The position numbers were made by a program, and so were the translations under genes. The notes beneath the pieces were generated by a model that worked only from the letters and a program-made list of their open reading frames with translations, was not told the DNA's origin and made no database searches. DNA of 63,344 nt, filler included, from Dirinaria sp. TL-2023a (Eukaryota), in the NCBI GenBank assembly GCA_051941275.1. It is 5 parts of 5 records of this genome, joined end to end, with 100 filler letters (N's around TTAATTAATTAA, not from the genome) between each part and the next. Parts side by side here need not be neighbours in the genome. Positions count along the whole stretch, not along the records: positions 25,456 to 38,070 come from JAVEBF010000754.1; 4 more parts are not named here. The stretch is one strand, 5' to 3'. Below are positions 8,690 through 50,814 of this stretch, piece by piece. Numbering within the stretch: the first letter of the stretch is position 1; each line of letters opens with the position of its first letter.

Positions 8690-11600
8690 TCATGAGATAA
8701 ACTCAATGGCAGTTTCTAAATGGTGATTCGTATCAGGTGCTTGCCGAGCTACAATATTCTGCCTGCCTTCACCACCTTTCTCAGGGAGTTCCCAGGATTC
8801 GAACTCATCGCCAAGTCCAGGGACCTCCCATTTCGACTCCCAGAATAGCTCCTTGGGCAATTTACTGGCTATTCTTATCTTTTCGCATGCCTCTTCATCA
8901 AGCCCATAGGTTCGCTGGACCAGCCATAATTTCGCCCATCTTAAAGTCGGAGGCGGTCCTTCGCCGCTGACGTCTAGCAGGATATCCAGTCTTGACGGTG
9001 AGTTCCACCAATCCGAGTCGGGCTGCCGCAACATGTCGTCCAAATGGATCAACAGTTCGTCTTCTTCTTTTCGGAATTCATCGACATTGTCCTCTGATAA
9101 TTTTTCGATTTCATACCCAGGAGACTCCGGTTTTATTGTGCAGCACGTGTGTTTCAAGTCCAGCTTGCTGAATGCGACGAACCTTTCAACCTCTTCCTTG
9201 ATCTTGTTTACCGGTATACCCTTGCCGGCTAGGACGTTGTACCAGTTGTACAAGATTGCTGAGACCTCGTAAAGTCGTAAGGAGTCTTGCAGGTAGAAAT
9301 CGCGCTGCCTGCTGGAAATGCCTGCCAACAATTTTGTTGTCGGGGTACATCCGTGGTGAGAGCAACCACAATGACAGCTATCCTGGCACTCAGGGGCGGC
9401 TTTTTGTAAAAAGTACAATAGCAATGGACTTAAAAGTCTCGGATACAGAGCGTCCATCTCTTCTAACACAGGATCAACCCATTGTGCTTTGACCAACTTA
9501 CCTGCAAAGCGCGATGTCAGGCTCTCCAGCTCATGTATCTCTATGCACTGTAGTTCGCTGGTGCCAAAAAATGCTGCGATATGTAGTATACTAATATCGT
9601 GGTCTCGACATTCTAGCAACGGGCTTGTGAGTTGAAGAAAATACCACTCTGCAAGGTCAAGCCGTTCTCTGATCTGTTGAAAATTGATTCTGCTGGCTTC
9701 CCTTTCTTTCAGCCAGGCTAGTTTCATGAGCGGCGTCATGCCATGTTGATCGTATTCGTTGAGGCCTCTAAACCCCACGTTGTAAAGACATATGGCAAGA
9801 TTTTTGGATCTCACTTCATGGTATACAGACACATCGCGGGTTTCTAGAGAAGGAGGAACTCTTATACCAGCCTTTTCTAGCTCAATCCAAGTATGAGATG
9901 CGCGTGTATCGTCAATGGCTGTTCCTAGTTGCTTAAGTTTGTCCAGAACCTTCGGTGCTAAAGATTTTGTAGCAAGCACGGCCAGATCCTCACGCCGGCG
10001 TTTCACGTGTTTTATTAAGCAAACTATGTTTGGTGCGAGAGGCCATTGGCTTGCACCCGCATATCCATGTGTCGCATCAAACCGTAAAGCAAGATCCAAA
10101 GTAGACTTCAGGCCGTATTTTTTGTCACGTGATGTAAGTGGGCTGCCAGCTTTGAGTAGTATCGAAGCAGCATTTGCACCATCTTGCATTGAAATGGTAT
10201 AATCTAGTGGTGACAAGTTGATCGAGTCCAGTTGGTCACAAGAAAACTCATTTTCTAGAAGAAGTTCTACTCCCCGCGCCCAATCACCACAAAGGTGAAG
10301 AGGAGTTTGACCAGCGACGTTTGACTCGTTGAGCACATCATGATTCCGGAGTTGGTATCGAACGAGGGTTTCCGATTTTTGAAGTACAGCCATGCTAAGA
10401 GGCCCACACCCCATAGTGTCTGAGATCAATTAAGCAAGATAAATTTAAAACAAAAGAAGTTGCTTCCTCACCTTCGGCGAATTCTTCACTCATTCTTAAA
10501 TTCTGAATCATGTTTCTTGCATATAACATTAGCCCATCAGGATTGGTGGGAGGTTTAACGTGCTCTGATGCCTTTGCTATGACCGTGGCACCAGACTCCA
10601 CTAGGGCCTTTCTTGCGGCCTCAAGTTCACCCTCGTCATAAACGTCTAGCGGCGAATATTTATCATCACCGAGACTGTATTGGAAGTACATGCCTAGCGG
10701 AGATCTAGTTTCATTAGCGATTACTCGTAAAAATTACCACGTAATTCTTTTACATACTGTCCAGAGAAGTCAACCGAATCGACATTTGTGCCCTCGTGCT
10801 TGAGAAACTTTATCAATTCCACAGCATGTGCGGGATCCCAATAAGCTTCAAACGCATGACGAACGACGATCTTTAAAAGTCAGTTGCTGTGCGAGACCAT
10901 GGGGATAATGTGGCCCACATGAACCAAACTTAGTCCATCCACGTCGATGTTAGATGGGTGTGCTTTGTGCTGTCTAAAAAGCTGCCATAATTCTTGTTTC
11001 ACTTCTTCTATACTTTCCTCATTAACAAGCGACCTCTCCAAGAGGCCAATTGCAGGGTTTTCGCTGGTCGCCACCGATATGATGTTTAGATCGGGGTTTA
11101 AAGAACAGCCACCAGCACCAGAGGACTTAAAAAAGCTGATGCGTACTGCTCGCCTGAGCAAGTACCACTGGAATGAAACTTGAAAGTTCCTATCAGGTGA
11201 TGCCCATATGCAGTCTTTCCGATGTCGGACCTTTACGGCAGTACCCTTACCTAGAAATCCATATGGCGAGCGCCATGTATTAATGAGTCTCTTTTGGCAT
11301 GAGCAGTGGAGAGCTGGCAGGCGTCTGCTGGTGGTGGGTGCTGCAATTTCATCTGGTCGCGAGTTTGTCGAGGGTACTCGGCTGACTGAGCTACTATTTT
11401 CACCGTCCTTGTCAGTCACAACTAAGCCTTGTTGACAAGCACTATCTAGTTCTTGGGCAAGCGCTGCAGGCTTCATCATCAGTTCTTGAAAGTGCACCAC
11501 CTTGACCTGCAGAAATTTAGCCGTGGTAATATAGCGTTTCGATATGTTACCATCAAGTCCCGCATCTCCTGCAGGATTTTTCCCATGTTTTCCATGCTAT

Positions 11601-12208
11601 TCCAATTTCTCGAGACATGATCTCCCGTTTCTACAGATCTATTACGAATTTGTAACGCACTTTCTTGAATCTGAGGTAGTTCTTGAGCGACAGAATTGAT
11701 TGCATGCTGCGCAGTTGCAATGTCGACGGTACGGGAACTATTTTGTAACCTAGGCTTACGTTAACTATTATCCCTCTAGCTTGGGTCTCATGGCAGAGAC
11801 GAACTGATTTTGGATCTGCAAAAACAACATCAGGGTACTCTTGTATCCTTCAATGTTCCTCATTAAGCCCTCAAATTCCCTCATTCCCAATTGCCCCTTG
11901 ATAGTACCCCATGCTTTTGTAAAGTTCTTACTATTAAATTTGGGAGCCAGAACCTGAAGCCGTTCGTCGAGCGCCCGAAGATCTGTCGTGCAATTTTGTA
12001 GAATATCTTGTAGAATAGGTTCATGGGTGGAATTCAGGACGTCGTTGGCCCGAATGATCTCGAGAATCAATTCTAGCTGCTTGGCTTGGGTATGAAAGCC
12101 GTGCACGACTCGAGGAACATCTTTGCGTTTGGACAACAGGTTGAGAGCCCCGACAGTGGAATTCAATAGTGTTATCGCTGAAACTAACAAACTGATAGGC
12201 TCCGCCAT
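8690..12208 (-). CDS. Protein with N-terminal HeLo-like/SesA-type domain, ankyrin repeats and a C-terminal Cys/His motif, about 6 exons, roughly 1000+ aa
   Basis: Exon 1 (MAEPISLLVSAITLL...LQNCTTDLRALDERL...AWGTIKG...IEGYKSTL) resembles fungal STAND N-terminal HeLo-like domains. Ankyrin-like GQTPLHL, LSPLDY and GMTPLM occur later, and the C-terminus has CHCGCSHHGCTP...HTCC. ORFs 11768..12208, 10880..11500, 10395..10691 and 8690..10429 splice in frame through GT-AG introns. Confidence 0.75.
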
Positions 12209-12628
12209 GTGCGAGACGCTAGGCAGATACCGGAAGCTTCGCTACGTGAGTGGACAAAAGCAGTGTATGAACGTCGAACTGGAAGCCTGGAAACTCGACA
12301 CTGTTTTGGACTTGAGCACAGAGGGGGTTTTGTAGCGGTCGGAGTACTGATTTGAAGGGTAAACTTATCACGCAAGGCGTTGGAGGTCTTCAAACAATGT
12401 ACATTATATTAGGCAGCCAGCTTCAGCCTTGTAAATGTACCTTTCCTGGCGCTAGAGATCAGCATCAGACTAAAAACGCTAAACTGGAAATGATCAACTT
12501 TACCACCCGACTGAAACAAGCATCTGCAAGCTGAACCAATTGCGAGCAGGTCGAGCCCAGGGGCCCCTCTCCTCGTTTTAACAAGCTCGGTCTCCAGATC
12601 TGCCCGTAAAGGGGATGGGGGGGGACTC

Positions 12629-12728
12629 NNNNNNNNNNNNNNNNNNNNNNNNNNNNNNNNNNNNNNNNNNNNTTAATTAATTAANNNNNNNNNNNNNNNN
12701 NNNNNNNNNNNNNNNNNNNNNNNNNNNN
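12629..12728. other. Artificial contig spacer
   Basis: N44-TTAATTAATTAA-N44; the linker has stops in all six frames. Confidence 0.97.
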
Positions 12729-13107
12729 AAAAAAAAAAAAAAAAAAAAAAAAGTGATGAATACGAAATGATTTCGTAATCTCATACCTGCCGTGTTTTTC
12801 TTTTTCTTGATTCGGGATTCGGGATTCGGGATCGGAATACGGATGAATAGGAGAGAAGAGGGAGAGGGAAAGGAAAGAAATGAAAAGAAAAGAAAAACGA
12901 AAAGAAAAGAGAACGTAAGGAGATGACTGGGTCGGTGAGAGTTTCAAAAATCCTTACTTTGACTTTTTGCCTGCCATACCCAACCTAGTTACGCCTATCC
13001 TACTTATCATCTAAAATACGCGTATGCGCACAGACACACGCATTATATCCGTAAAACGAGGAATTTAGGTCATGCGCCATGCCGTACTGTACGGGCGAGG
13101 AGGGAAG

Positions 13108-13130
13108 GTAGATAGATAGATAGATAGATG
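13108..13130. repeat. (GATA)n microsatellite
   Basis: gtagatagatagatagatagatg immediately downstream of the 13153..14918 gene. Confidence 0.8.
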
Positions 13131-13152
13131 AATCATAGTTAATTGTTGGCAG

Positions 13153-14918
13153 TCACTTACCTTCAATCCCCCTCGCTTCGTCCTTGCCGATGGTAGATCT
13201 CCTGCCCCCCACCCCATACAGCACCTCCAGCACGCGACCCTTCTGCGTCTCCCTCACCCGTTTCAAATGCTCGTACGTGCCCTCCAACCCTCTGATCTGC
13301 TCTTCGACCCCGATCGTACACCCATCCCCGCGTCTCACGAGCGGACTCACCAGTTTCCGGCGCAGATTCTCCAGGTTCCCCTTCAGCGCCACGAGTTTCC
13401 CGTTATGCTCGACCAGCAAACTTTTATTGCGCGTCGTTTTCGCGCGCACGGAAGCGAGCAGGTCTTTGTTCTTCTCGTACTTGCGCAGGGTGGCGGAATT
13501 GGGGCCGACGAGGCGGACCCAGAGCGAGGAGAGGAATTCCCCCTCGAGCCGTTCCTGCGTGTCGGATTCGCGGATCACGGTGCGTTGCAGGTTCAGGAAT
13601 TGGCGGTCGATGGATTCGAAGAGGGAGAAGAGCGAGGTGGAGTAGGTGAGTTCGCTGTTGATGCTTTCTTCCAGCACGCCGAGGAATTCGTTGAAGGTGC
13701 GGTGCAGTGTCCGATGCGTGTGCTGGGAGTGCGTGGCTCCGAAGAGTTCGGTGAAGATCCGGCCTACGGGTGTCGGTAAGCCGGTGGAGCGGTTCTCGAG
13801 GATCCCGACACGGGAGAAGAGGGCGTGCAGGTTGGTGAATGCGGACGATAGGGAGGTTAATGGGAGGGCGGAAAGAGCGCTGAGTTCCCGCTGCGCCCAT
13901 TCCATCACGATCAGGATGCCGTCGATATCCCCATCGACGTTTGCGAAGAATTTCGTCAGTTCGATGCCGAGCGTCTTGAGGCTTTCGCTGAGACTGTCGA
14001 GTTCATTGACGATCATCGGCGCAGAGGTCATGTTGGCCGATCGCACGCTCTCGCCGAGATCCCAGACAGCAACGCCCGTCTCTTGCAGATCGCTGATCTG
14101 CTGCACACCGTTCTCGGAGTAGTATATCAGAGGCTCGAAGGATCGGGCCAGGCCTGCAACCTTGACGAGGTCAGGCACTGGTGGAGAAGGCGGCGTCCGG
14201 ATAAGGATGCGTAATAAGGCTACAGCGACTGAGAACATCAACAAGGTTGAGGACAGCGAGGTCCATGATTTGGTTATATGGTTTATATACGACCGTAGCC
14301 AGGAGAGTGCGGTCTCAATGGGCTCTGTCCGATGTTGTACCTCTGCGCGCACCGCGAATCGGATGTCTTTCAATAGTCAGTATGAACAAGCAAAGACTGA
14401 GAAGATAGCTGCACACAATTGTTTGCATTCTCCTGCACAACAGGTACCGTCTCCTCCGGGTGCGCAAACTGTTGCCCGAAATCTTGCGCTCCTTCATGGC
14501 AAGATTCCGTTTCACGTTCAGGTGATTGCTCCTTTGTCGGCGACCTCGAGCCCCGGGGCAGGGGTATGTTTGCAGGTACTATCGTCTCCCCCTCCCTTTC
14601 TCTCGCGCTCTCGTATTGCGGGCTAGTACCTCTTGATCGCGAAGGACTCGCGGAAGGCTTGAGCTTGGTGTTGTGCTCTGGATACGGTTGGTGTCGGTAC
14701 CATCCGCCAGCGGCTTGCTGGTTTCTCCATGCCGGCGGCGACCACGGCTCTTCTGAATTTGACTCCGTGTCTGCTTCCGACTCTTCGGATTTGAAGCCCG
14801 AGTGTTGCGATGGAAGACCAAAGACTGGCGAGCGGTTCTCCATGCTTTCCAAGGATGCTGAAAGCGAAGGATGCGAGTCGAACATCCTATCTAGGGAATT
14901 TGTGCGTTGCGCAGCCAT
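13153..14918 (-). CDS. Conserved Pezizomycotina hypothetical protein (disordered N-terminus, one TM helix, coiled-coil C-terminus), 2 exons
   Basis: ORFs 14370..14918 and 13153..14373 join via intron 14416..14367 (GTGTGC...CTGAC...AAG), giving NNYIRFAVRAEVQHR. It contains PVPDLVKVAGLARSFEPLIYYSENG and has strong GC3 bias. Confidence 0.8.
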
Positions 14919-25355: not shown

Positions 25356-25455
25356 NNNNNNNNNNNNNNNNNNNNNNNNNNNNNNNNNNNNNNNNNNNNT
25401 TAATTAATTAANNNNNNNNNNNNNNNNNNNNNNNNNNNNNNNNNNNNNNNNNNNN
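25356..25455. other. Artificial contig spacer
   Basis: N44-TTAATTAATTAA-N44. Confidence 0.97.
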
Positions 25456-27100
25456 TTGCTCCTGTAATTAAAGCAGAAATTAATTTTGAATTGATTGTTA
25501 TTGGCTTGTTTTTGGAATATCTTGAGTTTGGGATTTTGCAATTAGAATCTATGCTTTGACGGGGTTGCTATTAGTATAGGGTTTTCTTCGGGGGACTAAT
25601 TGGTTGTCGTGCTGTCTGTTATACTGCTTGACCTTGTTATATTGCCAACAGCGGAACTGTCTGTCAGTACGGCAGTACTGCCTATTAGTACGATAGTATT
25701 GGCTAACAATACGAAAGTACGGTATATCATATCGTCCGTCACAATATCTGCCATAGTCGTCATCTGTGAAATCATGAAAAATCCGAGCACGAACCCAGTT
25801 GATCGAGAAACCTACAGCTGAGTATTCGTAGCTTTTAAGAAAGTAGCGATGACGAGAAAATCATGGAAAATATAGTAGGCTTGGAGTTTTCATCATCAAT
25901 CGTCCGTCGCTGAACAGTATAGTCATCATCAAAGTTCTCCAAAGGCAACGCTCTAATGAGCTAATTTCCATATCAGCAGTATCAGCTGTTTTTATATTTT
26001 CGGCGACGGGGATGTTTTGAAGATATGTGATTTGAGTAAGTGATATCGGAGCTTGGACTTCCCTTTCCAGTAACGGTGAACTCCGAAATATTTCATCGTA
26101 TAATAACGCCAATCTATGCCTTCGAGGGTATTGCCCAATCCTTCAAGTCTGTGGCCCATGGTTTGCGCCGCGGTTTCCGAATGCCAGTCAAGGAGCTCCA
26201 TTACGGTGAGACTCAAATCAACTTTCGTGAGGTCGGCCTCAACGTTCTGCGCCTGCGCCTCCAAATGCTGCTCAAAAGGATCCATGGCAACCGGAGACTC
26301 TAGTGGCAGTGCTTTTTTGCGGAGAGGGGAACGATGGATTTTTTCGGAGCGCTGTTATCCTATTTCGGATACAACAAAAAATTAGCGTTATAACTCGACG
26401 CTTGTACTCAGTTTCTTTGTTCGCCATTTTTAGCTCTTTGTTCCTTGTTTTCTGCGCTTACTTTTGCATTGAACATACAATATGATCGGTTTAGTGGTTC
26501 GTTTGGAGGTAGGTTTGAAGTGTAGGTAATGCGTGCTTGACGCGGTGTTTCTTTGGGTTAAATGTGCGGGGTACGCCGTCTATAGTTGTATAGAAGGTCG
26601 GTTTTCCAGGCGGTATAGGCAGCGGTTTGAAAGGTAGATAGGCAATTGCTTTTGAAGGTAAAAGTGGAGATGTAAGTGGCGGTGTCGGAGGTAAGGTTGA
26701 TGAGACAACCTTGACTCAGAGTAACAGCTTTTTGGGTTTTGGAGGTGATGATATAGGAAGTGGTGTAGGGTGTGCTTAGTGCATTTTTAGGCGCTGTCGT
26801 TGTTGCACTTGCTTATGCAACTGGTTGTATGTCTGACAAAAATCCTTAAGCTCTTTCTGATGCGCAGTAGAAGGTGGACGGTTGTTGATGAACTATCGAT
26901 GGTGATCATGGCGGAGAAGAATAATGGAGGAGCAGATGTAGGTGAGGTAACTGCGGAAGATGATTTCAGTACTGCTTCTGGTGCTGCAATTTATACTGCA
27001 ATTGGCTTCGTATATGATGGTCGCGCACATACTCATTGAAGTATAGATATCAAAGGTATATTCGCGGCGTTTCTCAAATTCTATGTCAGTAATATAGTAG
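25456..27100 (-). mobile_element. Decayed, RIP-like repeat or retroelement gag-like remnant
   Basis: TpA-rich contig end with long near-open minus-strand frames broken by stops, a Pro-rich stretch, and a terminal CFNYRS that could derive from a CFNCGS zinc knuckle. Confidence 0.35.
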
Positions 27101-27791
27101 CATGGAAAAATTTTTCTCGTATGTCATGATACCTGCAGGCGCATGGGCGAGTACCTAGTAAATAGGTGATAATGGTTATGGTGATTTCTTGATCCAGGTA
27201 AACTCGCAAGCACTATTACTCTTGACTGGCCGGTCTTACATCGTAATCTTCGATGCTATACGGCTCTGATCGACGTCATCGAAAGTCTGTCTCTGCGTGC
27301 TGTTCTCTGTAGCAAAGTTTCTTATATGTCAATGAAGATTACTAGCGTAGAGTGTCGGTGCTTTCGAAAAGAGATGAATTCGAGCTCTCGCCATATTCTT
27401 TTTTGAATCGTCATCATCGCTTTCAAGGTACGCTCTTGGGGACCCGTCTATTATTAAATAGAGAAGAATAAGCTAACAACACTATCGAAATCATGTCATT
27501 GAGTGATGATCAATGACTTTGAAATCTAATATGTGTTGTACAATGTGGTTCTTGTAACAGAGCTGCGAATTTTAATGAACAACGCTCTTTGTTCTGCAAC
27601 TCGGGAAAGACTGATGGTCATATCTTTTGATATGATCGATATGGGATGAATTAGAAATAAGTCTTACAACATATATGTTTTGGGACCGAAATTGAAGAAA
27701 AATCGGGTCTCACACGCGATTTGATATGTGAATTCAATGTCTCCTCGCGATCCTCCCACATCTTTTGCCTATATAATCCACACATCCAGCC

Positions 27792-28880
27792 TCACCCAAT
27801 CGATTGCGCAAAGCCAAGATACCCCTCCCCATTATCAAAATACGTATAGTACGCCTTCACAAACAACGCCCCAAAATTGGCTGGCCCGCTCTGCGGTTGC
27901 TTCACAACCCCACATCTACACGCCCCAGTCCTTGCGTTCTGCACCACATACAAATTACTCGAAACCATATACTCATTCCCGCTCCCAAACGTAAACACGA
28001 TATCCGGCGCCACGCCTCTCTGCCCACAGTCGATAGCCCCCGTGTTCGCATCCGCACCTACTTGCGCCCAGATTGCTTCGGCAGAAGCAGCATCGACATT
28101 GATCAGTGGGTTACCGGTGTCGATGAAAGCGTATTGCGGGGCGAGATTGCCTTGGAAGCCGTTCACGCTGTAGGCGCCGCCGCCGAGATCGAAAGTCCAG
28201 TGCGCGGCGCCGGGGATGAGATTCTCCCATGCGAAATCACCGTAGTAGAGATCACTGTTGACGTCGTTGGGAGTGATGAAGCCTCCGCCGCCGAGGTCGT
28301 CGCTGGAGAGGTAGATTCCGAAAGAACCCCATCCTAGCGCTGCGAGCGGGCAGTTGCTAGTCGTTTTTCCTACGTTACCCGTACAGGGCCCGAGACCAAA
28401 TACCCCGTCCGCGTCATCAGCATAAGTCCCCTCGTTGGACACGAGACAGAAAGCGCTTGAGGAGGGCGTCGTGGTGCCGGCGAAGTTGTACGGCGCGGTG
28501 TATACGGTGCCGCTGATGCCTTGGCTATTGCCACCGTAGGCTTCGTTGCAGCCAGGGGAGCCAGGATAAGGCACTATAGAGGAGTCGGGCTGGACCGTAT
28601 TGCCTGGCCCGGCGCCAGCTGTTGGAAGGAAGAGGTCTCCCGAGCCGGTGTCGACGAGGACGGAGAAGTGTTGTCCAGAGCCAAGCGTCAGGATCGCTTG
28701 ATAGTTCTTTTGGGTGTTTTCATCCATTTGCTCGGTTGAGTCTTGGCGTTTTGGGAGGGCGCTGTGAGGTGTGATATGGAGAGGATAGCTTTGGAGATGG
28801 GGAGAGGTGGATTGGTTGAGCACTGGAGTAGCGAGGACGCTGGCGAGGAGGTTGTGCCATAGGATTGCGTGGGCCCACAT
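27792..28880 (-). CDS. Secreted pepsin-family (A1) aspartic protease, intronless
   Basis: Signal peptide MWAHAILWHNLLASVLA, Kex2-like KR, both catalytic motifs (VLVDTGSGDL, AFIDTGNPLI), flap Tyr (EAYGG), DGVFGLG and C-terminal YLGFAQ. Confidence 0.9.
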   Translation of the reverse strand: MWAHAILWHNLLASVLATPVLNQSTSPHLQSYPLHITPHSALPKRQDSTEQMDENTQKNYQAILTLGSGQHFSVLVDTGSGDLFLPTAGAGPGNTVQPDSSIVPYPGSPGCNEAYGGNSQGISGTVYTAPYNFAGTTTPSSSAFCLVSNEGTYADDADGVFGLGPCTGNVGKTTSNCPLAALGWGSFGIYLSSDDLGGGGFITPNDVNSDLYYGDFAWENLIPGAAHWTFDLGGGAYSVNGFQGNLAPQYAFIDTGNPLINVDAASAEAIWAQVGADANTGAIDCGQRGVAPDIVFTFGSGNEYMVSSNLYVVQNARTGACRCGVVKQPQSGPANFGALFVKAYYTYFDNGEGYLGFAQSIG

Positions 28881-30199
28881 TGTCGAGGTTGCTGGGCTCC
28901 TAGGATAGCGAAATTACTATCCAACAGAGTAGGTCTGACACTGCTTGGAGCTGACATTTAGCCAGGACCAAGACAAGATGAGTCTTATATATCCCATGCT
29001 GGAAGTGCGCACAGGTGACGACAGGATGATCTTTCTGATTTGTGGTGTACCTGGCTAGTGCACAAGTAGTGTGTTCATGCACCTTTTCGTCTGCTATTAC
29101 TTGAAATAGTAAGAATCTAGTTCTGTCGAGGCTTACGATTGCCCGCCTCCACGCGAAATACATGGACCTTAGACTACCTTAGGCTAAACAGTTGTGAGTG
29201 GGGGCCGCAATCAAGTGGCACCATTGGCTGCGCTCGTTGCATATTTCGAGATCTATGCGAAGTTGTGTTCATCAGCTCCATCACTGCCGAGGATGCTTTT
29301 GTTGATCCAGTTCCAGAGATTGGCGCTAATACGTGGGAAGTCTTTGGAGTTTTCCATGAAATGACGGAGTGGTCTGCCACCAGCATCTCATACCTTACCT
29401 GGGCGTGCACCCAGTTGACTGATAGTGAGCTCATCGTGCATCAATCAGGGCAGTTCGGGGTGCAGTCACTGCAGTGGACTCTGACGCTAGAGCGCTTAGG
29501 TAAACACTCGGGCGGCCCAAGAGGCTTGGCGAGCCCAGCCATGTTTCAAGCCACGGCCTGGTATCCAGTACCAGAACCACAATTAGGGTATTTCCAGGGT
29601 TAGGGTTGAATGTAGGTACCTAAGGTACCTTAGGAACACGCTGAAACACAGAATTGTTCCCCAAAAGGGTCTGAGTCCTGAGGCAAGTATCCAGTCGGGT
29701 AATCTCTGACTGTTTCGTTTCTGCTGCTCTACAAGTTGTATTCCTAAAAGAGCTGGGACTGCCATGATCAGATCGCTTTGATTGCTGCATACGTTGTATG
29801 GCTATCTCGCTAGGACGACTAGTTGTGTTCAGTATTGTTCAGTATTCAACTTGATAATTTAGTATCCAGGAAAAGCCTTCCTGGGCACGCTGTAGCCCTT
29901 GGTCATGTTATCATCTATATACGGTAACCAACAGCTTGAGGATATCGAGGGCTGAACATAGCAGGTCAACAGCTTTGGAGGGACAGCGCTAAGGCATCTT
30001 CGTCATTTTCGCTCTCTGCACGCTTCAAGGCATGCCAACTGTTTCATGCTCAGTGTCTTGGCACATATGAAGAATATCTTCTCTTTCCTCATTCAATCCT
30101 GCAGCCACGTCCCTTGCAAGCATGGTAGCCTCAAGGGATCTTCAGGAGCAGACCTAACGGAAGGCCTCATTGAGATGAGGCAAACTGTACCAAGCGAAC

Positions 30200-32473
30200 T
30201 CAAGCCATACCTTTAAATGCGCGTTCGAAACGCTCGGCGACAACCAATATCTCGGCGTCCATCCTGGATCCACCCAAAAATGTAACACTGAAAGGCAGCT
30301 CTCGCTTGTTACTAGCAGCCGATTCCGACGATTCTACGCACGTTCCTGCAGGCACAGCTATAGCGCATAGGTCCAGTACATTACCAAAATGGGTGAACTC
30401 TCCTAAGACACTATTTGTCTCAATAGGATTTCCAAGGACTTCTTCCACGGTCCAATGTTTCGGAGTTGTTGGCACAACGAGTACGTCCACACCACAGGCG
30501 CTGTACTCAAAAACTTTCTCGACCTGGCGGAGGTAGAGAGCTCTGGCTTGAAGATCTCGGTATATATCGACTGCAGAGCTTTTCCTCGCCACGACGTTGG
30601 AGAATATAGTCTCGATCACGGGGTGAAGACTACCCAGGTTTTGCTCGAGCCAATCGTCCGGTAGGCTGGCAAGCCGCTCGTACACGAAACTACCTTCGTA
30701 AAGGAGTTTACCGGCCTTTTCGAATGGTGCCCAGTCAATGAGTTGCAGCTGACCTCCCAATCGCTGGAGCATCTGCACGGAGTGGTTGAATTTGCTGCGA
30801 TAGCTAGGGCAGCAGATGGCAAGCGCCTCTGGTGGCGGGATGCCAAATTTAAAAGAGTTTGCTTGCGGTCCTAAAGAATTGACATGCCGCTGCAAAATGG
30901 GAGCGCACACTTTCGCGTATCGATCTGCTTCGTCGAATTGAACGCTCAGATTCCAGACGGTGCGTGCGTCCTCAACGCAGGTTGCAATGAGAGCGATGCA
31001 ATCTAGAGATAAGCAAGCTGGTGTAACACCATGGGCCGAGATCAAGCCTCGGGTCGGTTTGAAACCCACTACACCGTTGAATCCTGACGGCACCCGTCCT
31101 GATCCAGCAGTATCCGTAGCTAGTGAGAACGACACCAAGCCGGCGCCGACGCTCACACAGCTCCCACTTGAGGATCCTCCGGATATATGATCACGACTGA
31201 ACACAGATCGAGTAATGCCGTACGGGGAGCGGCAACCAGTAAGGCCTGTGGCCAATTGATCCAGATTAGTCTTGCCAACGAAGATTGCCCCTTGCGAAAT
31301 AATTGTCTGGTACGAACGCGCACTCAGAGACGGTATCTGCGCTAACGGCGGGCAAGCCGTTGTTGTCGGCAAGCCTGCAATGTCAATACTATCTTTGACA
31401 CTAAAGGGCACTCCAAACAAAGGGGGAAGTGCTTCACGATGTGGCCATTTGCTCTGCAGCTGTCTTGCCTGTTCTAGAACCGACTGCCGCGGCTCTCTAT
31501 AGATCCACACTGCAGGGTCGATCTCTGTATATTTCTCAATTCTACTCAAGGCCTCCTCCACGACAGTCACGGGCGATAGACCATGACGGTAGCTTTCCTG
31601 TAAATTTGCAATACCGAGGTCTCCGTTGAAAGAAGGAGGGGTGTGTGGAGGAGTCGTGCTAGCACAGGTATTTGTGGTTGAGATATACGGAGTAAGGCAC
31701 CTGATGAACGATTCCAATTTAGCTACGAAACCAAATAATCCTTGCGACCAATGTAACATCCGTAGTGAACAGCTTTTAAACTCCTCGTTATATCCAGCGG
31801 TGGCTTCTTCGATTCCGCCTTCACACGGATACTATCAGTCGCTGCCTTGTCTTACTGATAACATCAATTGAACAACACGGGAAGACTCACAGCACTCAAA
31901 CCCTCTGTCATTGGCTTCTCGAATAGTTGTCGCGAAACAGCATTCTGTCGTTACACCGCTCACAATAAGATGCGTAACAGATTTTGCTTTTAGCCTATCC
32001 ATCAAAGAGGTATTCCAAAAGGCGCCTTTGCCTGGCTTGTCAATTACGACCTCGCTCGGCCTTGGTTGCAACTCGTCGATTATGTCCTGCCCGTACTCTC
32101 CTCGTACGAGCAGCCGACCCATTTCGCCCTTCTCCCCGATCACTTTACAATGTCGCGATTCCCCTGGGGCTGCAGCTTGACGGTGTAGCTTTGAAGATGG
32201 GCAATCTGACAGGTCTGGCTTTTGACCCTCCCGAGTATGGAAGACAGCTAATCCAGCCTGCCGACAGGCGTTCAGAAGCCGCGCAGTGGGAGCGATCGAA
32301 GATTGTACGGCTTCAAGAGAGCCACCCTGAATCTGCCCGAAGCCTCCTTCCAGCAGGAAATCTCGTTGCATATCAATGACAAGCAATGCAGTCCTAGCGA
32401 AAGGGAATTGGAATTCATACGGCTCCGCCTCGACGGCGAGCATAGATGGACGACTCGATTTTTCAGAAATCAT
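30200..32473 (-). CDS. Fusion: isochorismatase-family cysteine hydrolase (triuret/biuret hydrolase-like) + amidase-signature allophanate hydrolase-like domain, 2 exons, 733 aa
   Basis: Exon 1 (32473..31891): ALLVIDMQRDF, HTREG, IDKPGKGAF, GVTTECC, REANDRGFEC. Intron 31890..31819 (GTGAGT...CTGAT...AAG) restores CGIEEATAGY...WSQGLFG in frame with the 519-aa ORF. That ORF carries VKDSID, GKTNLDQLATGLTGCRSPYG, GGSSSGS and TDTAGSGRVP. Confidence 0.88.
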
Positions 32474-32639
32474 ATTCGTGACCTCAGGTTGCCTACGATG
32501 CAGCGAAAAGTGCCTGCCGCCTCAATTCGTCGAAGAAATCGAGTATGAAAGGGACGATCTTTCACCCACCCAAGGAGCTGTAGCACAGGTGACTTGGAAA
32601 AGAAGACCGATTTCCGTAGGTCCCCTCATTCAGCCCCAG

Positions 32640-33030
32640 TTATCTCCACCATTGGTGCTTTGCCTGGTATGTCCATCTCGTAGATAGGCCCGACGGCCCC
32701 CGACGGCCGGCGGAGGCGCATTTTGCGGGGTCCGACTTGAGGCTCTACCAGCCCTCCCACCTGTAAACAGATTACGCTAATCTGGTCTAGACCCTACATC
32801 CCATCTAATCTGGCAGAATTGGGGACTTGCTGTATCCCAGGCCACACCACTATTCAGGACTGAAGAGCCTTATCAGCAAAGATTATTTACACGTACGGTC
32901 GCTGTCGCTGAATCTTAGAGACATATAACGCGGCGTCGGCACAGCCATAGCTATGGTTCACTATCGATGCTCTTATCCCTGGGATCTGGCCTCGGGCATC
33001 ATGTATATATATAGCGGAAAAGCTGCTATC
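32640..33030. promoter_or_regulatory. Divergent promoter with HGATAR sites, tandem CCGACGG elements and a TATA-like tract
   Basis: TTATCT at 32640, AGATAG at 32682, TTATCA at 32870; CCGACGGCC at 32690 and 32700; TATATATATA near 33004, upstream of the permease ATG at 33113. Confidence 0.5.
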
Positions 33031-33112
33031 ATAGGAGTGACTTCGAATACAAACAACCTGGCCTTACTGCTTCTTCTACTATTGCTCCCTTGACCATTCT
33101 TTTGGCCCGAAG

Positions 33113-34916
33113 ATGTCGTTCCTATCTTCCAATCGTCTGAAGGCCCGGATCGCGCCTCACCTGCGTGCACGGGTCCCATATGAGGCAGGCATCTACGCAA
33201 ACAGCCCACGCTGGTCAAATAAAGGTTAAATGCGTTCGCACTGCCATGCGAGCTCTTGCTGACGTTTTCATGTTCCAGATCTTGATCCAGTGCCTGTGCA
33301 TATGAGGACATGGGGTGGCATCGTAAATTAAGCCTTATTTGATGACGCTGATTTGTGGTATTGGACTGGCTAACGTCGCGACAGGATTATTGGGCTTACT
33401 GGACATCCGACATGCTCGCGCCGCCGCTCGCAAGTACTGTGTCCTCCGTCATGGCCCTAGGATTCGCAGCGAGGGAAACGATTCCGATCGTCTTCTTTGG
33501 ATTCGCGATCTGTAGTGTGGTCATCACACTCACAGGGAAGATGGGTGCTCAGTATAGTGTCGCGTTCCCAGTCATCGTTCGCTCAATCTTCGGGATGTAC
33601 GGTTCCTATCCTGCCATCTGCATCAGAGCCTTCGTTGCCGCTATGTGGACTGCAATCCTATGCGTTCAAGCCGGTGGATTTCTGCAAAATTGTATCGAAG
33701 CAATCTGGCCTAGCTTCAAAAGATTTCCCAATCACCTAGCCCCTGATGCAGGTATCACATCAGCCGGCATGTTATGTTTCTTCCTTTACTGGATATTCCA
33801 AACGATATTGGCAACAATGCCCATTCAAAAGCTAAGGATCTTGTTCCTCGTCAAAGCAGTCATCGTTCCTCCGACGTTTGCAGCTCTGTTCCTGTGGGGT
33901 GTCGTTGTGACCAAGGGCGGGGGCCCTCTGGTAACAGGCCAAGCCAAGATGACAAGCCCCTACATGAATACTGCTTTCTCGGCATTGACTGGTCTGAATG
34001 CTATAATCGGACTCTTCTCCTCTATGGCTGTCAACATGCCAGACTTTGGCAGGTTCTCAAAGAATGGTCTTGCAGGGTACCATCAATTCTTCGCTTTACC
34101 GGTCATTGGGACCTTAGGTGCTCTTACACCAATCTTTGTTACGTCAGCCCACAGCTACATCTGGGGCGAATTCCAGTGGTACATGCCTGCTGTCATCGAA
34201 AACTTCGACAGTCGGGCAGCTCAGTTCTTTACCGCTTTCTCCTTCATGCTCGCCACTATCGGCAACCAAATCGCAGCGGGCACCTATCCCTTCAGCAATG
34301 ATGTGTCGGGGCTTTGTCCCAAATACATCAACATCTTTCGCGCTACTGTGATTATATCTGTATTTTGCGTTGTCTGTACGCCGTGGAACATCATCAAGAA
34401 TGCTGCTGGCCTGCTCGCTTTCCTGTCTGGTTACTCCTGCTTGATGGGGCCTTTGGCCGGCGTTATGGTCAGCGACTTCTATCTTGTCAAGAAGCGGAAG
34501 CTTGATGTCCATGAACTCTACAAAGATCATGGTATCTACTACTACAGCTACGGCGTGAATTGGAGAGCCTTCGCTGCATTCGGGATCGCTTTCGCGCCAC
34601 TCGTTCCTGGATTCGCCAAGTCCATTAATAATAATTTGGCAGTCGGAGGAGCTTGGAAGGTAATGTTCGGCCTTGGTATGGAGAACTTTATATGGCCTGG
34701 CTAATCAAGCGACAGATTTATACCTTCGCCTGGCTGTTCGGCTTCTTCATTGCCCTTCTGAGCTACTACATCATCTGCACTTACATCTCGCCAATCACTG
34801 GCGCTTTAGTCGAGAACGCAGTCCTTCCACCGCAGAGGGGAGATGCCAGTCCAAGTATCGAGAGTGTGTACGAGACCAAAAATGGTATGCAGGCGGAGAC
34901 GAAGGAGGTAGTGTAA
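33113..34916 (+). CDS. NCS1-family nucleobase/allantoin permease (Fur4/Dal4-like), 4 exons
   Basis: Hand-read exons MSFLSS...RWSNK-DLDPVPVHMRTWGGI-DYWAYW; FPVIVRSIFGMYG, NMPDFGRF, PWNI, FLSGYSCLMGPLAGVMVSDFY, GVNWRA; final exon IYTFAWLFGF...; about 12 TM segments. Confidence 0.92.
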
Positions 34917-35738
34917 TGTCGTTCACATACGAAATCCGACATTGGTGTCATGCAGCGTGGCTTGCCAACCGCGTGCAATTCGACCTTTTTCCATTGATTT
35001 AGTCGAAGATTCCTCACTCTTACTCTAGTAGTACCTTTGACGTCGCGAAAAAGTGAAATAGTATGATGGAAATGTGGGCGCATTGTCCTTTCCCACGCTC
35101 CCGGTGTTGCAAATGAATGGTAATCCGCTTTAGCCATGGCAGTCTCGGACATAGGAGTAACAGATCACCATTTATTTGCGGCACCGGGAGCCGTGTCTCC
35201 CATATCGTGCCGAGCTTCGAGACTCGTCGATGCCTAAATGGCTTTTTATCAAGGTCCCTAGGTACACCTCATTGAAGGGCAGAGACTGTTCCAGCATGCA
35301 AGCCCCTTTTGACTAGGCTTGATTCATCGAAGATCGAAGCGCGGAGAGCCAATAAGAGCCGCAGCTCGCTTACTTATCTCGATCTAGGCTTCTTATCTTG
35401 ACATTTTCTTACTTGTCACCCTCCTCTCCACGTGATGCACCGCGTTCATCCAACGTAAGGTAGATTGTCCTGAACGGTAGACATAAGCTCATCGTACACA
35501 CAGTCCTTGCCGTCGCAAAACTCCGGCATAGCGGATGTCAATGCTCATAAGTTTTCTGCTTCGCATATCGTGACGGATCAGGGGTCTCAACCAGCTCTAA
35601 GCCTATGATCAATTCCCGAGCTAACTGGGTAATGAAGACGCAGTAACACACGATGACCCGCCAATCTTGCCCGGGTAATGTCAACGAAATACCAATTGGA
35701 GCTAATCTGTACATAAGAAGATTGTACTTTCAGCAACG

Positions 35739-37828
35739 ATGTCTTATACCCTAAGTCCAGGTCCTCCAGTTGTTGAGCAGAGAATAACCAAGGGTCGTCC
35801 TTGCGACGCGTGCAGGAGGCGCAAAAGCCGGTGCGTTCTCACTCGAATCGCAGAGAAGTGTGTCCTTTGTAATTTTCACAACCAAGACTGCACCTTCACT
35901 GAGGCAATCCCGTCACGGAAGAGAAAGTCTGTCAGTCTTGAGAACGAAGGCGGAAGGTGACCCAGGATCGCTCCTATTATGCATTAGATTTTTGACGATC
36001 TTTTAGCAAAAAGAAGATCGTTGAACCCTTGCGTACAACACTTTCAGACAGGCACGTTTCTCTGGACAATCCAGAGCTTCCAGTCGAGGATTACGCGCAG
36101 CTCAAAGGCCCGTCCTTGTTAAAAAAAACCCTTGGCCTACAGCGACGACACCATGGGCTCTTCATTGGCTCCAGCGGAAGATTCGAGCCAGCGCTAATGG
36201 TTGCCGACAGTGCTTTCGGTCCGAAAGCATTGGTTCATGAGATTTCCTTTCGACATGTTAACGACAATAATATATTTATGCTAGCGTGCGACCAAGCAAC
36301 CAAGCTTTTTGACGCTGAACAGGACGACCTTGATGCTATCGAGCGTCTTATAGCTCCACATGGAAAAGCATTGATTCATTTGTATTTTCGCATTGTTCAT
36401 CCCAGCTTTCCCATCCTTCATAAAGATGTTTTCTTAGAGAAATATGAACGTACTTATCGCGAGTTCTCGCCCGTGCTTCTGGCTGCGGTCTACATACTAG
36501 CAATAGAGTTTTGGAGCTACAGCTCAGAGCTTACCGGCCATGCTACGCCCGACATCGATGCGTTAGAGATCATAGCTTCCAGATCTATGAGTTATGCGAT
36601 TCATCGCTCCAAGTTGTCGACAGTGGAAGCCGGCCTTCTTCTTCTACAAAGATCGAGTGAGTCTTCCTGGCCGCTCACAGCCCAGATGGTAGCCGTCAGT
36701 CAGGATTTGGGCTTACATCGTGATTGCTCGAACTGGAACATCCCGGAATGGGAGAAGGGTCTACGAAAACGCTTGTCTTGGGCAGTAATCATGCAGGATA
36801 AGTGGGCAGCCCTAGTGCACGGTAGGCCATCGCACATCTACCGATCAGACTGGAGTGTAGGACCTCTATCAGACCAGGACTTCCCAGAGACATTTGCCGA
36901 CGAGAACGACGAAGAAGGTAGTACTGAGGTGGAAACTGGACGAGCAATCTTCATGTATATGGTATCCTTAACTCAGATTCTTTCAGATATCTTGACCTCT
37001 TGCTACTCCGGAGCGGCTGAGGCAGATGTCATCGAAGACCAAGCCCAGGCAACCGCTCTTGTTCTCACACGAGCAAAGCCACTGCAAATCAGGTTGAAAG
37101 AGTGGTATGCGTCATTTCCTCAATGCTTGAGCATGGAAAATGTCAAAGCCAGGAAGCTTTCTTCAACTGGCTCCTTGCACTTGGCTTATTGGGCTGCCGA
37201 GCTTAGCCTCCACAGGTGCATCATCCGAACTTTAGGTGACTGCACAGATCCAAATGTCGTCAGAATATGTCAGCACGCCGCTCTGATCCGATCCGCTTCG
37301 GCCATGGATGTTGTGAAAGCGTTACGGCCAGAGCATTGGTCCAGTTTCTGGTACTTCGCATCTGAGTTCAACTTTGGCCTTATTGGGCTGTTTCGGGTGT
37401 TGCTCGCTACCTCTCTCGCGACAGCAGATGATATAACCGTCAGTATGGACAGTCTAGATCAATACACGTGGACGCTGAAGATGTCCCAAAAGAACGTCCG
37501 ATTTCTGCACAAATCCATTGCTATGATAGATCATGGTGTCAGGAACCTAAGATTACGCTTTCTGAACAAGAAACTCGATGAACGCGACGCACGTCGGCAG
37601 GCCTTGACCAAGCGTTCAACATATATCTCTGAAAGTCCCAGTTATTCTACCGAAAATAGTCACGAAGCATTAGCTTCGCTTGGTTCCCTGGACCCCAATA
37701 TTACGGCAAATGATATTGCGCAAAATCCTGAAGGCAGTAGCTTTTTCTTTGACACGAGTCCTATGTCTGAGGACTACCTTGGTAGCTATTCGCAGCAGGT
37801 AGATGGGACCTATACATCTTATATATGA
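35739..37828 (+). CDS. Zn(II)2Cys6 transcription factor, Dal81/TamA-like, 2 exons
   Basis: CDACRRRKSRC...CVLCNFHNQDC binuclear cluster; VEDYAQLKGPSLLKKTLGLQ, LYFRIVHPSFPILHK and LGLHRDCSNWNIPEWEKGLRKRLSWA in the fungal TF domain; intron from about 35958 to 36007. Confidence 0.88.
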
Positions 37829-37950
37829 AGGATCATTGCAGCACGCTGGTTTTCGAGCATCACCAAGCCTTCCTTGAGGAGAATCCTTCACTACACCTAT
37901 GAGGTGCTCAATTTGGTTGCGCTATGAATATGATAATATAAAAAGGCAAA

Positions 37951-38070
37951 TCTTAATCGTACCCGTGTTCTCATAATCGTACCCGCGCTAGGAGAAACTT
38001 TCTATCGACACTAATCTTATTGGGTAAGAACAGCTACACCACACCAAAAAAGTTCTGTATAATTCAGAAA
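37951..38070. mobile_element. Probable DNA-transposon terminus at contig end
   Basis: TAATCGTACCCG repeated at 37954 and 37974 (20-bp period), followed by AT-rich sequence up to the contig break. This resembles internally repeated pogo/Fot1-type TIRs. Confidence 0.4.
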
Positions 38071-38170
38071 NNNNNNNNNNNNNNNNNNNNNNNNNNNNNN
38101 NNNNNNNNNNNNNNTTAATTAATTAANNNNNNNNNNNNNNNNNNNNNNNNNNNNNNNNNNNNNNNNNNNN
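38071..38170. other. Artificial contig spacer
   Basis: N44-TTAATTAATTAA-N44. Confidence 0.97.
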
Positions 38171-50714: not shown

Positions 50715-50814
50715 NNNNNNNNNNNNNNNNNNNNNNNNNNNNNNNNNNNNNNNNNNNNTTAATTAATTAANNNNNNNNNNNNNNNNNNNNNNNNNNNNNN
50801 NNNNNNNNNNNNNN
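50715..50814. other. Artificial contig spacer
   Basis: N44-TTAATTAATTAA-N44. Confidence 0.97.

What the first reader, a model, noticed from the sequence alone, without database searches (positions are those of the whole stretch)
30200..37828. Compact fungal gene cluster for ureide (triuret/biuret-type) nitrogen salvage
Seen: three adjacent genes on one contig. A cysteine-hydrolase/amidase fusion and an NCS1 permease are transcribed divergently from a 639-bp promoter, followed by a Dal81/TamA-like Zn2Cys6 factor. Established: in bacteria TrtA, BiuH and AtzF degrade triuret via biuret and allophanate to ammonia; NCS1 proteins import nucleobases and allantoin; Dal81/TamA co-activate nitrogen-catabolic genes. 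Inference: this is a self-contained import + hydrolysis + regulation module for scavenging nitrogen from purine-oxidation products or related ureides. I do not know of an experimentally described fungal cluster with this layout, but I could not search.
Basis: partly seen in the sequence, partly recalled or inferred. Interest (0 to 1): 0.82.

Follow-up and report, generated by a model that had tools for sequence, protein, structure and literature searches.

The report
Fungal ureide nitrogen-scavenging gene cluster
Three neighbouring genes of a lichen fungus (a two-in-one enzyme related to bacterial triuret and allophanate hydrolases, an importer and a regulator) stay together in many fungi and probably release ammonia from a urea-like compound; the enzyme's substrate pocket is rebuilt, so the compound may not be triuret or biuret.

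Summary
Three intact genes lie on one contig: a fusion (30200-32473, minus), an NCS1 permease (33113-34916) 639 bp away head to head, and a Zn2Cys6 factor (35739-37828). RNA contigs of a close relative join the two enzyme domains across the intron. The linkage is conserved: all three genes have consecutive accessions in four Dothideomycete genomes, pairs recur in Lecanoromycetes, Chaetothyriales and Geoglossomycetes, and fusion plus permease are adjacent in a basidiomycete. The C-terminal domain is an allophanate-hydrolase amidase domain without the AtzF C domain. The N-terminal domain is closest to TrtA, but it belongs to a separate fungal clade (100/100) that has lost TrtA's N41 and Q202 (a substrate-binding residue shared with BiuH) and gained Q39, C168 and W208. 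The permease lacks three Mhp1 pocket residues. No canonical BiuH was found in this incomplete genome. Yeast orthologues keep the first domain and have a dead amidase. Best reading: import, deamination to allophanate, then ammonia (0.75 for the class). The substrate is open: biuret/triuret about 0.5, another ureide about 0.35. Fungal TrtA/BiuH homologues are mentioned in print; I did not find the cluster described. New variant of a known kind.

The parts
31891..32473 (-). Fusion gene exon 1: most of the isochorismatase-like cysteine hydrolase domain (triad D24, K136, C169 in P0001 numbering); alternative start at 32443
   Evidence: best PDB match TrtA 6XIX
31819..31890 (-). 72-nt intron (GTGAGT..AG) whose removal joins the two enzyme domains in frame
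   Evidence: RNA joint in 1 contig of run X1 and a loose end in X2
30200..31818 (-). Fusion gene exon 2: end of the hydrolase domain (W208-S209-Q210), linker, and allophanate-hydrolase amidase domain (K326, S400, S424; Y558, R566); no AtzF C-terminal domain
32474..33112 (.). 639-bp divergent intergenic region; 5 HGATAR sites against 1.7 expected (3.65% of 2000 base shuffles reach 5); weak hint of GATA-factor control
33113..34916 (+). NCS1 permease, 4 exons, 543 aa; Mhp1 W117 kept, W220 to F, Q121 to L, N314 to Q, N318 to G
35739..37828 (+). Zn2Cys6 transcription factor, 2 exons (intron 35957-36006), 679 aa; cluster-linked paralogue, probably of the TamA/Dal81 group

Best explanation
An old fungal module for scavenging nitrogen from a small linear ureide. 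(1) The NCS1 permease imports the compound (inferred). (2) The N-terminal cysteine hydrolase attacks a terminal carbamoyl group through Cys169 and releases NH3 (triad shown; chemistry from TrtA/BiuH). (3) The route ends in allophanate, either directly from biuret or from triuret via carboxybiuret and biuret if the rebuilt pocket accepts both (inferred). (4) The fused amidase domain hydrolyses allophanate to NH3 and CO2 before it decays to urea (family and residues shown, activity inferred). (5) The Zn2Cys6 protein induces the pair, probably under GATA-factor nitrogen control (inferred). The pocket most likely replaced the Q202/Q215 amide anchor by Q39 and/or Q210, giving a triuret/biuret generalist that makes a separate BiuH unnecessary. 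Confidence 0.75 for 'ureide to allophanate to ammonia'; about 0.5 that the substrate is biuret and/or triuret.
For: Best solved relative of the N domain is TrtA (202 bits; RhdBiuH 178, BiuH 162, RutB 82). In 111 amidase-fused domains the triad and the substrate-binding E72 and K132 equivalents are kept in 110-111, with TrtA-type F35 (106), E160 (110) and Y187 (98) (positions from PMC7948467). The C domain matches AtzF/allophanate hydrolase far better than AtzE or GatA (TIGR02713 423 bits against 149 and 170), and 73 of 86 fused proteins keep both triads and the Y/R pair. Adjacency: fusion, permease and factor have consecutive accessions in Cucurbitaria, Aulographum and Patellaria (3 of 3 triples looked up) and consecutive tags in Neocucurbitaria VM-36; fusion and permease are consecutive in the basidiomycete Meredithblackwellia. 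Nine yeast-type members (5 named: three Dipodascopsis, Limtongia, Sugiyamaella) keep the hydrolase triad but have lost the amidase triad. That is expected if the product is allophanate, which Dur1,2 also hydrolyses (all Saccharomycetes examined have it, PMC3073912) and which decays to urea (PMC6219798). [quoted passage not shown] An NCS1 transporter for a linear substrate, metformin, is known (PMC13390362).
Against: The Q202 position is S in 99, Y in 6 and Q in 2 of 111; N41 is G in 104; I205 is L in 109. Q215A raises the Km of BiuH more than 25-fold (PMC5806882), and N41Y or Q202E leave TrtA under 10% active (PMC7948467), so canonical binding of either substrate is not preserved. NF050097 (BiuH) scores 215 against a cut-off of 370. 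The two trees disagree on whether the clade lies inside TrtA. The amidase lacks the C domain that K. lactis allophanate hydrolase needs for dimer formation and full activity (PMC5770610). I did not check that the yeasts with a dead amidase carry Dur1,2, and loss of a second step would be tolerated under other substrates too. Linkage is not universal: the Lineolata permease and factor hits lie on contigs of different length, and in L026 the factor follows the fusion with no permease match. The assembly is incomplete (3105 contigs). No activity or induction data exist.
Confidence: 0.75

Rival explanations
1. New specificity. The substrate is another natural ureide or acyl-urea from purine or pyrimidine oxidation, such as oxalurate, formylbiuret, formylurea, ureidomalonate or a guanidino-ureide. 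The first domain removes the terminal NH2, the N-carboxy product loses CO2, and the amidase domain finishes off either allophanate or a primary amide such as oxamate.
For: Six pocket positions are changed together and conserved (Q39 107, G41 104, C168 109, W208 97, S209 99, L212 109 of 111). Position 210 is Q, D, E or N. The TECC motif is absent from all 202 bacterial domains examined, 193 of which keep the QG motif. The permease has lost Mhp1 Q121, N314 and N318, uniformly in its clade. In this family a close relative, GuuH, acts on guanylurea and barely on biuret (PMC9800807). Presence in yeasts, filamentous ascomycetes and a basidiomycete points to an old natural compound.
Against: The amidase keeps the allophanate-hydrolase Y/R pair in 73 of 86 and decays in yeasts, which fits allophanate best, and only biuret-type substrates give allophanate in one step. 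No third enzyme for a different backbone lies in the cluster.
Confidence: 0.35
2. Strict triuret hydrolase. The N domain acts only on triuret, and the amidase domain also handles carboxybiuret (as AtzE does) or biuret, so that no BiuH is needed.
For: TrtA-type F35, E160 and Y187; the FastTree run nests the clade among TrtA-type domains. A reference title seen reports biuret hydrolysis by the allophanate hydrolase TrzF (title only).
Against: N41 and Q202, needed for TrtA activity, are absent. The amidase scores far below the AtzE models. Yeast members with a dead amidase would stop at biuret.
Confidence: 0.12
3. The amidase half mainly serves as the cell's general allophanate hydrolase for urea or guanidine carboxylase, and the cluster has no single imported substrate.
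For: The genome has a stand-alone urea-carboxylase-like gene, DUF1989 genes and no other close allophanate hydrolase. Dothideomycetes have an unlinked 'stand-alone amidase' and urea carboxylase (PMC3073912).
Against: The carboxylase gene faces a LamB/YcsF gene, the layout I recall for the lamA-lamB lactam locus. Urease is present. This reading does not explain the fusion or the conserved permease and regulator. It may still be a side role.
Confidence: 0.08
4. The three genes are chance neighbours.
For: Two rearranged or split cases (L026; Lineolata).
Against: 32 contig lengths are shared by at least two of the three hit lists and 6 by all three; consecutive accessions across classes and in a basidiomycete.
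Confidence: 0.02

Closest known systems
Bacterial triuret/biuret pathway TrtA-(TrtB)-BiuH-AtzF of Herbaspirillum sp. BH-1 and Rhizobium leguminosarum 3841 (PMC7948467, PMC5806882)
   Same: Isochorismatase-like cysteine hydrolase with D-K-C triad, E72 and K132; allophanate hydrolase downstream; transporter and regulator clustered.
   Different: One hydrolase instead of two, fused to the amidase; N41, L39, V161, Q202 and I205 replaced; NCS1 instead of an ABC transporter (0 of 157 bacterial loci fetched had an NCS1 match); Zn2Cys6 instead of GntR; introns.
Allophanate hydrolase AtzF (4CP8), G. bethesdensis AH (4GYR), K. lactis Dur1,2 AH domain (4ISS)
   Same: Amidase-signature domain, 34-39% identical, K-S-S triad and the conserved Y and R.
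   Different: No C-terminal domain (profile positions 7-449 of 600); fused to a cysteine hydrolase rather than to urea carboxylase.
Dothideomycete 'stand-alone amidase' of Strope et al. 2011 (PMC3073912)
   Same: Allophanate-hydrolase-type amidase in Dothideomycetes, separate from Dur1,2 and unlinked to urea carboxylase; probably this fusion's C domain (inference, sequences not compared).
   Different: The passages read mention no isochorismatase domain, cluster or substrate.
Green-algal and bacterial tandem BiuH-TrtA proteins (e.g. P0114, P0021)
   Same: Same family, fused architecture.
   Different: Two hydrolase domains with canonical BiuH and TrtA motifs, no amidase.
NCS1 family (Mhp1; fungal Fur permeases; MetT)
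   Same: PF02133 and TIGR00800 match; Mhp1 W117 kept, aromatic residue at W220.
   Different: Mhp1 Q121, N314 and N318 replaced; not compared with characterised Fur proteins.

Membership tests
TrtA triuret hydrolase | IHL fold with D24/K129/C162 triad, E72, K132 | tested here: met
TrtA triuret hydrolase | TrtA consensus F35, E160, Y187 | tested here: met
   F35, E167, Y194 in P0001; 106, 110 and 98 of 111
TrtA triuret hydrolase | N41, Q202, I205 | tested here: not met
   G41, S209, L212 in an ungapped alignment to 6XIX; clade-wide
TrtA triuret hydrolase | Falls inside the TrtA clade | tested here: inconclusive
   nested in FastTree, beside the main TrtA group in IQ-TREE; labels are motif-based
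TrtA triuret hydrolase | Hydrolyses triuret; clustered with biuH | not testable with these tools
   activity untested; no canonical biuH found in the incomplete genome
BiuH biuret hydrolase | NF050097 above cut-off 370 | tested here: not met
   214.8 bits
BiuH biuret hydrolase | Y47, Y53, D173, Q215, V218 | tested here: not met
   F, G, E, S, L
Allophanate hydrolase (AtzF/Dur1,2 AH) | Amidase-signature K-S-S triad and the Y/R pair | tested here: met
   K326, S400, S424, Y558, R566 align with 4CP8, 4GYR and 4ISS; that Y and R bind allophanate is recalled
Allophanate hydrolase (AtzF/Dur1,2 AH) | C-terminal domain; score above TIGR02713/NF006043 cut-offs | tested here: not met
   domain absent; 423 against 511 and 456 against 487
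Allophanate hydrolase (AtzF/Dur1,2 AH) | Allophanate hydrolysis | not testable with these tools
   no assay
AtzE carboxybiuret hydrolase | TIGR02715/NF006631 match | tested here: not met
   149 and 156 bits against cut-offs 426 and 461
NCS1 permease | PF02133 above gathering score | tested here: met
   243 bits; TIGR00800 258 against cut-off 353 for the orthologue P0243
NCS1 permease (Mhp1-type nucleobase/hydantoin pocket) | W117, Q121, W220, N314, N318 | tested here: not met
   W, L, F, Q, G (profile alignment; residue list from PMC13390362)
TamA/Dal81 | Zn2Cys6 plus fungal transcription-factor domain | tested here: met
TamA/Dal81 | Orthology to A. nidulans TamA or S. cerevisiae Dal81 | not tested
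   no reference sequence at hand; one source label (P0205); the Atlas gave no TamA/Dal81 name; a second paralogue lies on C197

The most novel reading that the evidence does not exclude
The cluster defines a fungus-specific subfamily of the TrtA/BiuH cysteine hydrolases and a matching NCS1 clade, both with rebuilt binding sites. They act on a widespread natural ureide that is neither triuret nor biuret, through an uncharacterised nitrogen pathway old enough to be shared by yeasts, filamentous ascomycetes and basidiomycetes.
Probability: 0.35. Interest if true: 0.75.

Novelty: new variant of a known kind. Interest (0 to 1): 0.52.

Why it matters
The natural source and fate of triuret and biuret are open questions (PMC7948467), and none of my 10 literature searches returned a description of a fungal route. 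A three-gene unit kept across fungal classes makes the question directly testable: one enzyme, one permease and one regulator can be expressed and screened. If biuret or triuret is the substrate, fungi become a large sink for these fertiliser impurities and urate-oxidation products, and the enzyme is the natural TrtA/BiuH generalist that mutagenesis did not produce. If not, it points to an unrecognised nitrogen metabolite. It probably also explains the orphan Dothideomycete 'amidase' of PMC3073912. Interest is limited because the chemistry class is known, fungal homologues are already mentioned in print, and this scan has noted the same cluster before.

Tried and rejected
Literature: 10 searches covering triuret, biuret hydrolase, allophanate hydrolase plus isochorismatase or fusion, NCS1 clusters, TamA/Dal81 paralogues and fungal growth on biuret returned no description of this fusion or cluster. 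Robinson et al. 2018, Aukema et al. 2020 and Tassoulas et al. 2021 (AEM) were not held. Robinson 2018 is the likeliest place for the fusion to be mentioned, so 'not in print' is not shown. PMC10805520 and PMC2409186 (passages) were irrelevant; PMC12623156 and PMC12625717 (passages) gave only bacterial and archaeal context. The supplement of PMC7948467 gave figure legends only. Cyanuric acid hydrolase (PF09663): no match, but the control rang nowhere, so uninformative. AlphaFold model (pLDDT 68, pTM 0.76): the active-site loops are under 50, so it could not decide whether S209 or Q210 sits at the Q202 site; Foldseek only confirmed the amidase family. Atlas searches gave generic names. RNA contig depth cannot rank genes or show co-induction. 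The permease-to-factor intergenic region has no GATA excess (3 against 2.6). No complex prediction was run: a homodimer would pass by likeness to TrtA. The flanking aspartyl protease (27792-28913) was not seen beside the cluster in L026 or L027 and is left out.
Full report
OBSERVATION. The window is a string of contigs joined by N spacers; the three genes share contig G000:C754 (window 25456-38070). The fusion gene has two exons (32473-31891, 31818-30200) and a 72-nt GT-AG intron; the spliced frame has 733 codons and from the second Met equals P0001, a public record labelled Dirinaria, a lichen-forming ascomycete. The permease has four exons from 33113 to 34916 (543 aa), so the head-to-head gap is 639 bp. 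The Zn2Cys6 gene runs 35739-37828 (679 aa). RNA contigs from one lichen sample (3 runs, a relative about 97-98% identical) touch all three genes and show the fusion intron (1 contig, plus a loose end in a second run), the last permease intron and the factor's intron (2 of 3 runs each). The fusion is therefore one spliced transcript, on thin RNA support backed by many full-length homologues.

CONSERVATION. Of the best 120 long homologues of the N domain, 96 carry both Pfam domains; most of the rest are tandem BiuH-TrtA proteins, largely algal. I compared the longest-contig lengths in the three top-120 lists (95 fusions, 119 permeases, 119 factors; the window's own two proteins and one row without a length left out). 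32 lengths are shared by at least two lists and 6 by all three. This is a proxy, so I checked accessions: fusion, permease and factor are consecutive in Cucurbitaria (KAF1842419-21), Aulographum (KAF1987179-81) and Patellaria (KAF2843293-95), 3 of 3 triples looked up, and in Neocucurbitaria VM-36. Consecutive pairs occur in Capronia, Elasticomyces, a Pleosporales isolate, N. cava, cf. Caloplaca, two Letrouitia, Chaenotheca and Trichoglossum. In the basidiomycete Meredithblackwellia, permease and fusion are KAM0753513 and KAM0753514. Locus L027 shows the same divergent layout. L026 has the factor directly behind the fusion with no permease match, and the Lineolata permease and factor hits lie on contigs of different length, so the order is not fixed.

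THE N DOMAIN. Its best solved relative is TrtA (202 bits; RhdBiuH 178; BiuH 162). With the diagnostic positions of PMC7948467 (I read parts 1-4 of 6 of the text and the supplement legends), 111 amidase-fused domains keep D24, K129, C162, E72 and K132 and the TrtA-type F35, E160 and Y187, but have Q for L39 (107), G for N41 (104), C for V161 (109), S for Q202 (99; Q in 2), Q/D/E/N for G203 and L for I205 (109). About 96 of these rows are close relatives, so the counts are not independent. Q202/Q215 binds the far amide of the substrate in both enzymes (PMC7948467; PMC5806882, passages). None of 202 bacterial domains from 157 loci has the TECC motif, and 193 keep the QG motif. The fungal domains form one clade (0.998 in FastTree on 163 domains; 100/100 in IQ-TREE on 53). 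It is nested among TrtA-type domains in the first tree and lies beside them in the second; labels were assigned by motif. It works like TrtA/BiuH but fails membership in both.

THE C DOMAIN. It matches allophanate hydrolases by sequence and fold, keeps K-S-S and the Y/R pair, and lacks the AtzF C domain. In K. lactis, mutations that make the enzyme monomeric cripple it (PMC5770610, passages); the N domain, a dimer in TrtA, may supply the dimer instead (inference). Of 86 fused proteins, 73 keep all catalytic residues. Nine yeast-type members (5 named) and an Aspergillus californicus copy keep the cysteine triad but have lost the amidase triad; the other three are truncated or aberrant. Saccharomycetes carry Dur1,2 (PMC3073912, passages and supplement rows) and allophanate decays to urea (PMC6219798, passages), so a dispensable second step fits allophanate. 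I did not verify Dur1,2 in those yeasts.

GENOME CONTEXT. The fusion is the only close allophanate-hydrolase match (424 bits; next 117). Searches with the N domain and with a BiuH-TrtA tandem found one other family member, on C230, a GuuH-type sequence with Ser at the nucleophile and Arg at K132, which is unlikely to be a biuret hydrolase. Urease, a urea-carboxylase-like gene facing lamB, and DUF1989 genes are present. The assembly is fragmented, so absences are weak.

PERMEASE AND REGULATOR. Against the Mhp1 pocket list (PMC13390362, passages), W117 is kept, W220 becomes F, and Q121, N314 and N318 become L, Q and G; the motifs are uniform in 75 aligned proteins. The substrate is thus probably not a standard nucleobase or hydantoin. 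All 119 factor hits score higher with the cluster gene than with its 35%-identical paralogue on C197, so the cluster factor is a distinct lineage. Its tie to TamA/Dal81 is one source label plus recall. Dal81 is needed to induce DUR1,2 (PMC10169451, passages), which would suit an allophanate pathway. The divergent region has 5 GATA sites against 1.7 expected, a weak hint.

MECHANISM. Most likely: import of a linear ureide, deamination by Cys169, arrival at allophanate, hydrolysis by the fused amidase (0.75). Shown: genes, splicing, domains, catalytic residues, linkage. Inferred: every activity, the substrate and the regulation. Biuret and/or triuret through a generalist pocket is my first choice (about 0.5, the strict-triuret case included); another ureide is a close second (0.35).

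NOVELTY. PMC7948467 states that triuret metabolism is also present in some fungi, citing Robinson et al. 2018, which I could not read and which may mention the fusion. Ten searches found no account of the cluster. Two earlier AI reports of this scan describe the same cluster or fusion in other fungi; they agree but are not independent evidence. Verdict: real, conserved and untested; a new variant of a known kind; interest 0.52.

Noticed in passing
L010:1200-2031 (G000:C230, about 13000-13830): Second BiuH-family gene, closest to GuuH-type sequences (55-60% identical), with Ser in place of the catalytic Cys, Arg at K132 and Gly at the Q/E site, next to an amino-acid (APC) permease gene; possibly a pseudo-enzyme or a different chemistry.
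   Followed up: partly
P0382-P0387, P0389, P0391, P0396, P0376: Yeast orthologues and an Aspergillus californicus copy keep an intact cysteine hydrolase fused to a catalytically dead amidase remnant; their pocket motif differs again (Y-D instead of S-Q).
   Followed up: partly
window 35831-35886: One low-depth RNA contig skips 56 nt (GT..AG) inside the Zn2Cys6 cluster, which would break the frame; may be mis-splicing or an alternative form.
   Followed up: no
L105 (G000:C209): Stand-alone urea-carboxylase-like gene divergent from a LamB/YcsF gene, the layout recalled for lamA-lamB.
   Followed up: partly
L018 (G000:C197): Zn2Cys6 paralogue, 35% identical to the cluster factor; candidate for the true TamA orthologue.
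   Followed up: partly
P0067/P0298 and P0100/P0205: Paraphoma chrysanthemicola has two fusion copies, one sharing a contig length with a permease and the other with the factor.
   Followed up: no
window 27792-28913 (-): Intronless secreted-type aspartyl protease gene, 57% G+C against about 49% around it, covered by RNA contigs.
   Followed up: no
window 8690-12241 (-): Multi-exon gene with a SesA/PigL-type N-terminal domain and ankyrin repeats, suggesting a fungal NLR-like protein.
   Followed up: no
window 12629-12728, 25356-25455, 38071-38170, 50715-50814: N spacers with an internal TTAATTAATTAA linker mark joins between contigs; neighbours across them are not real linkage.
   Followed up: yes
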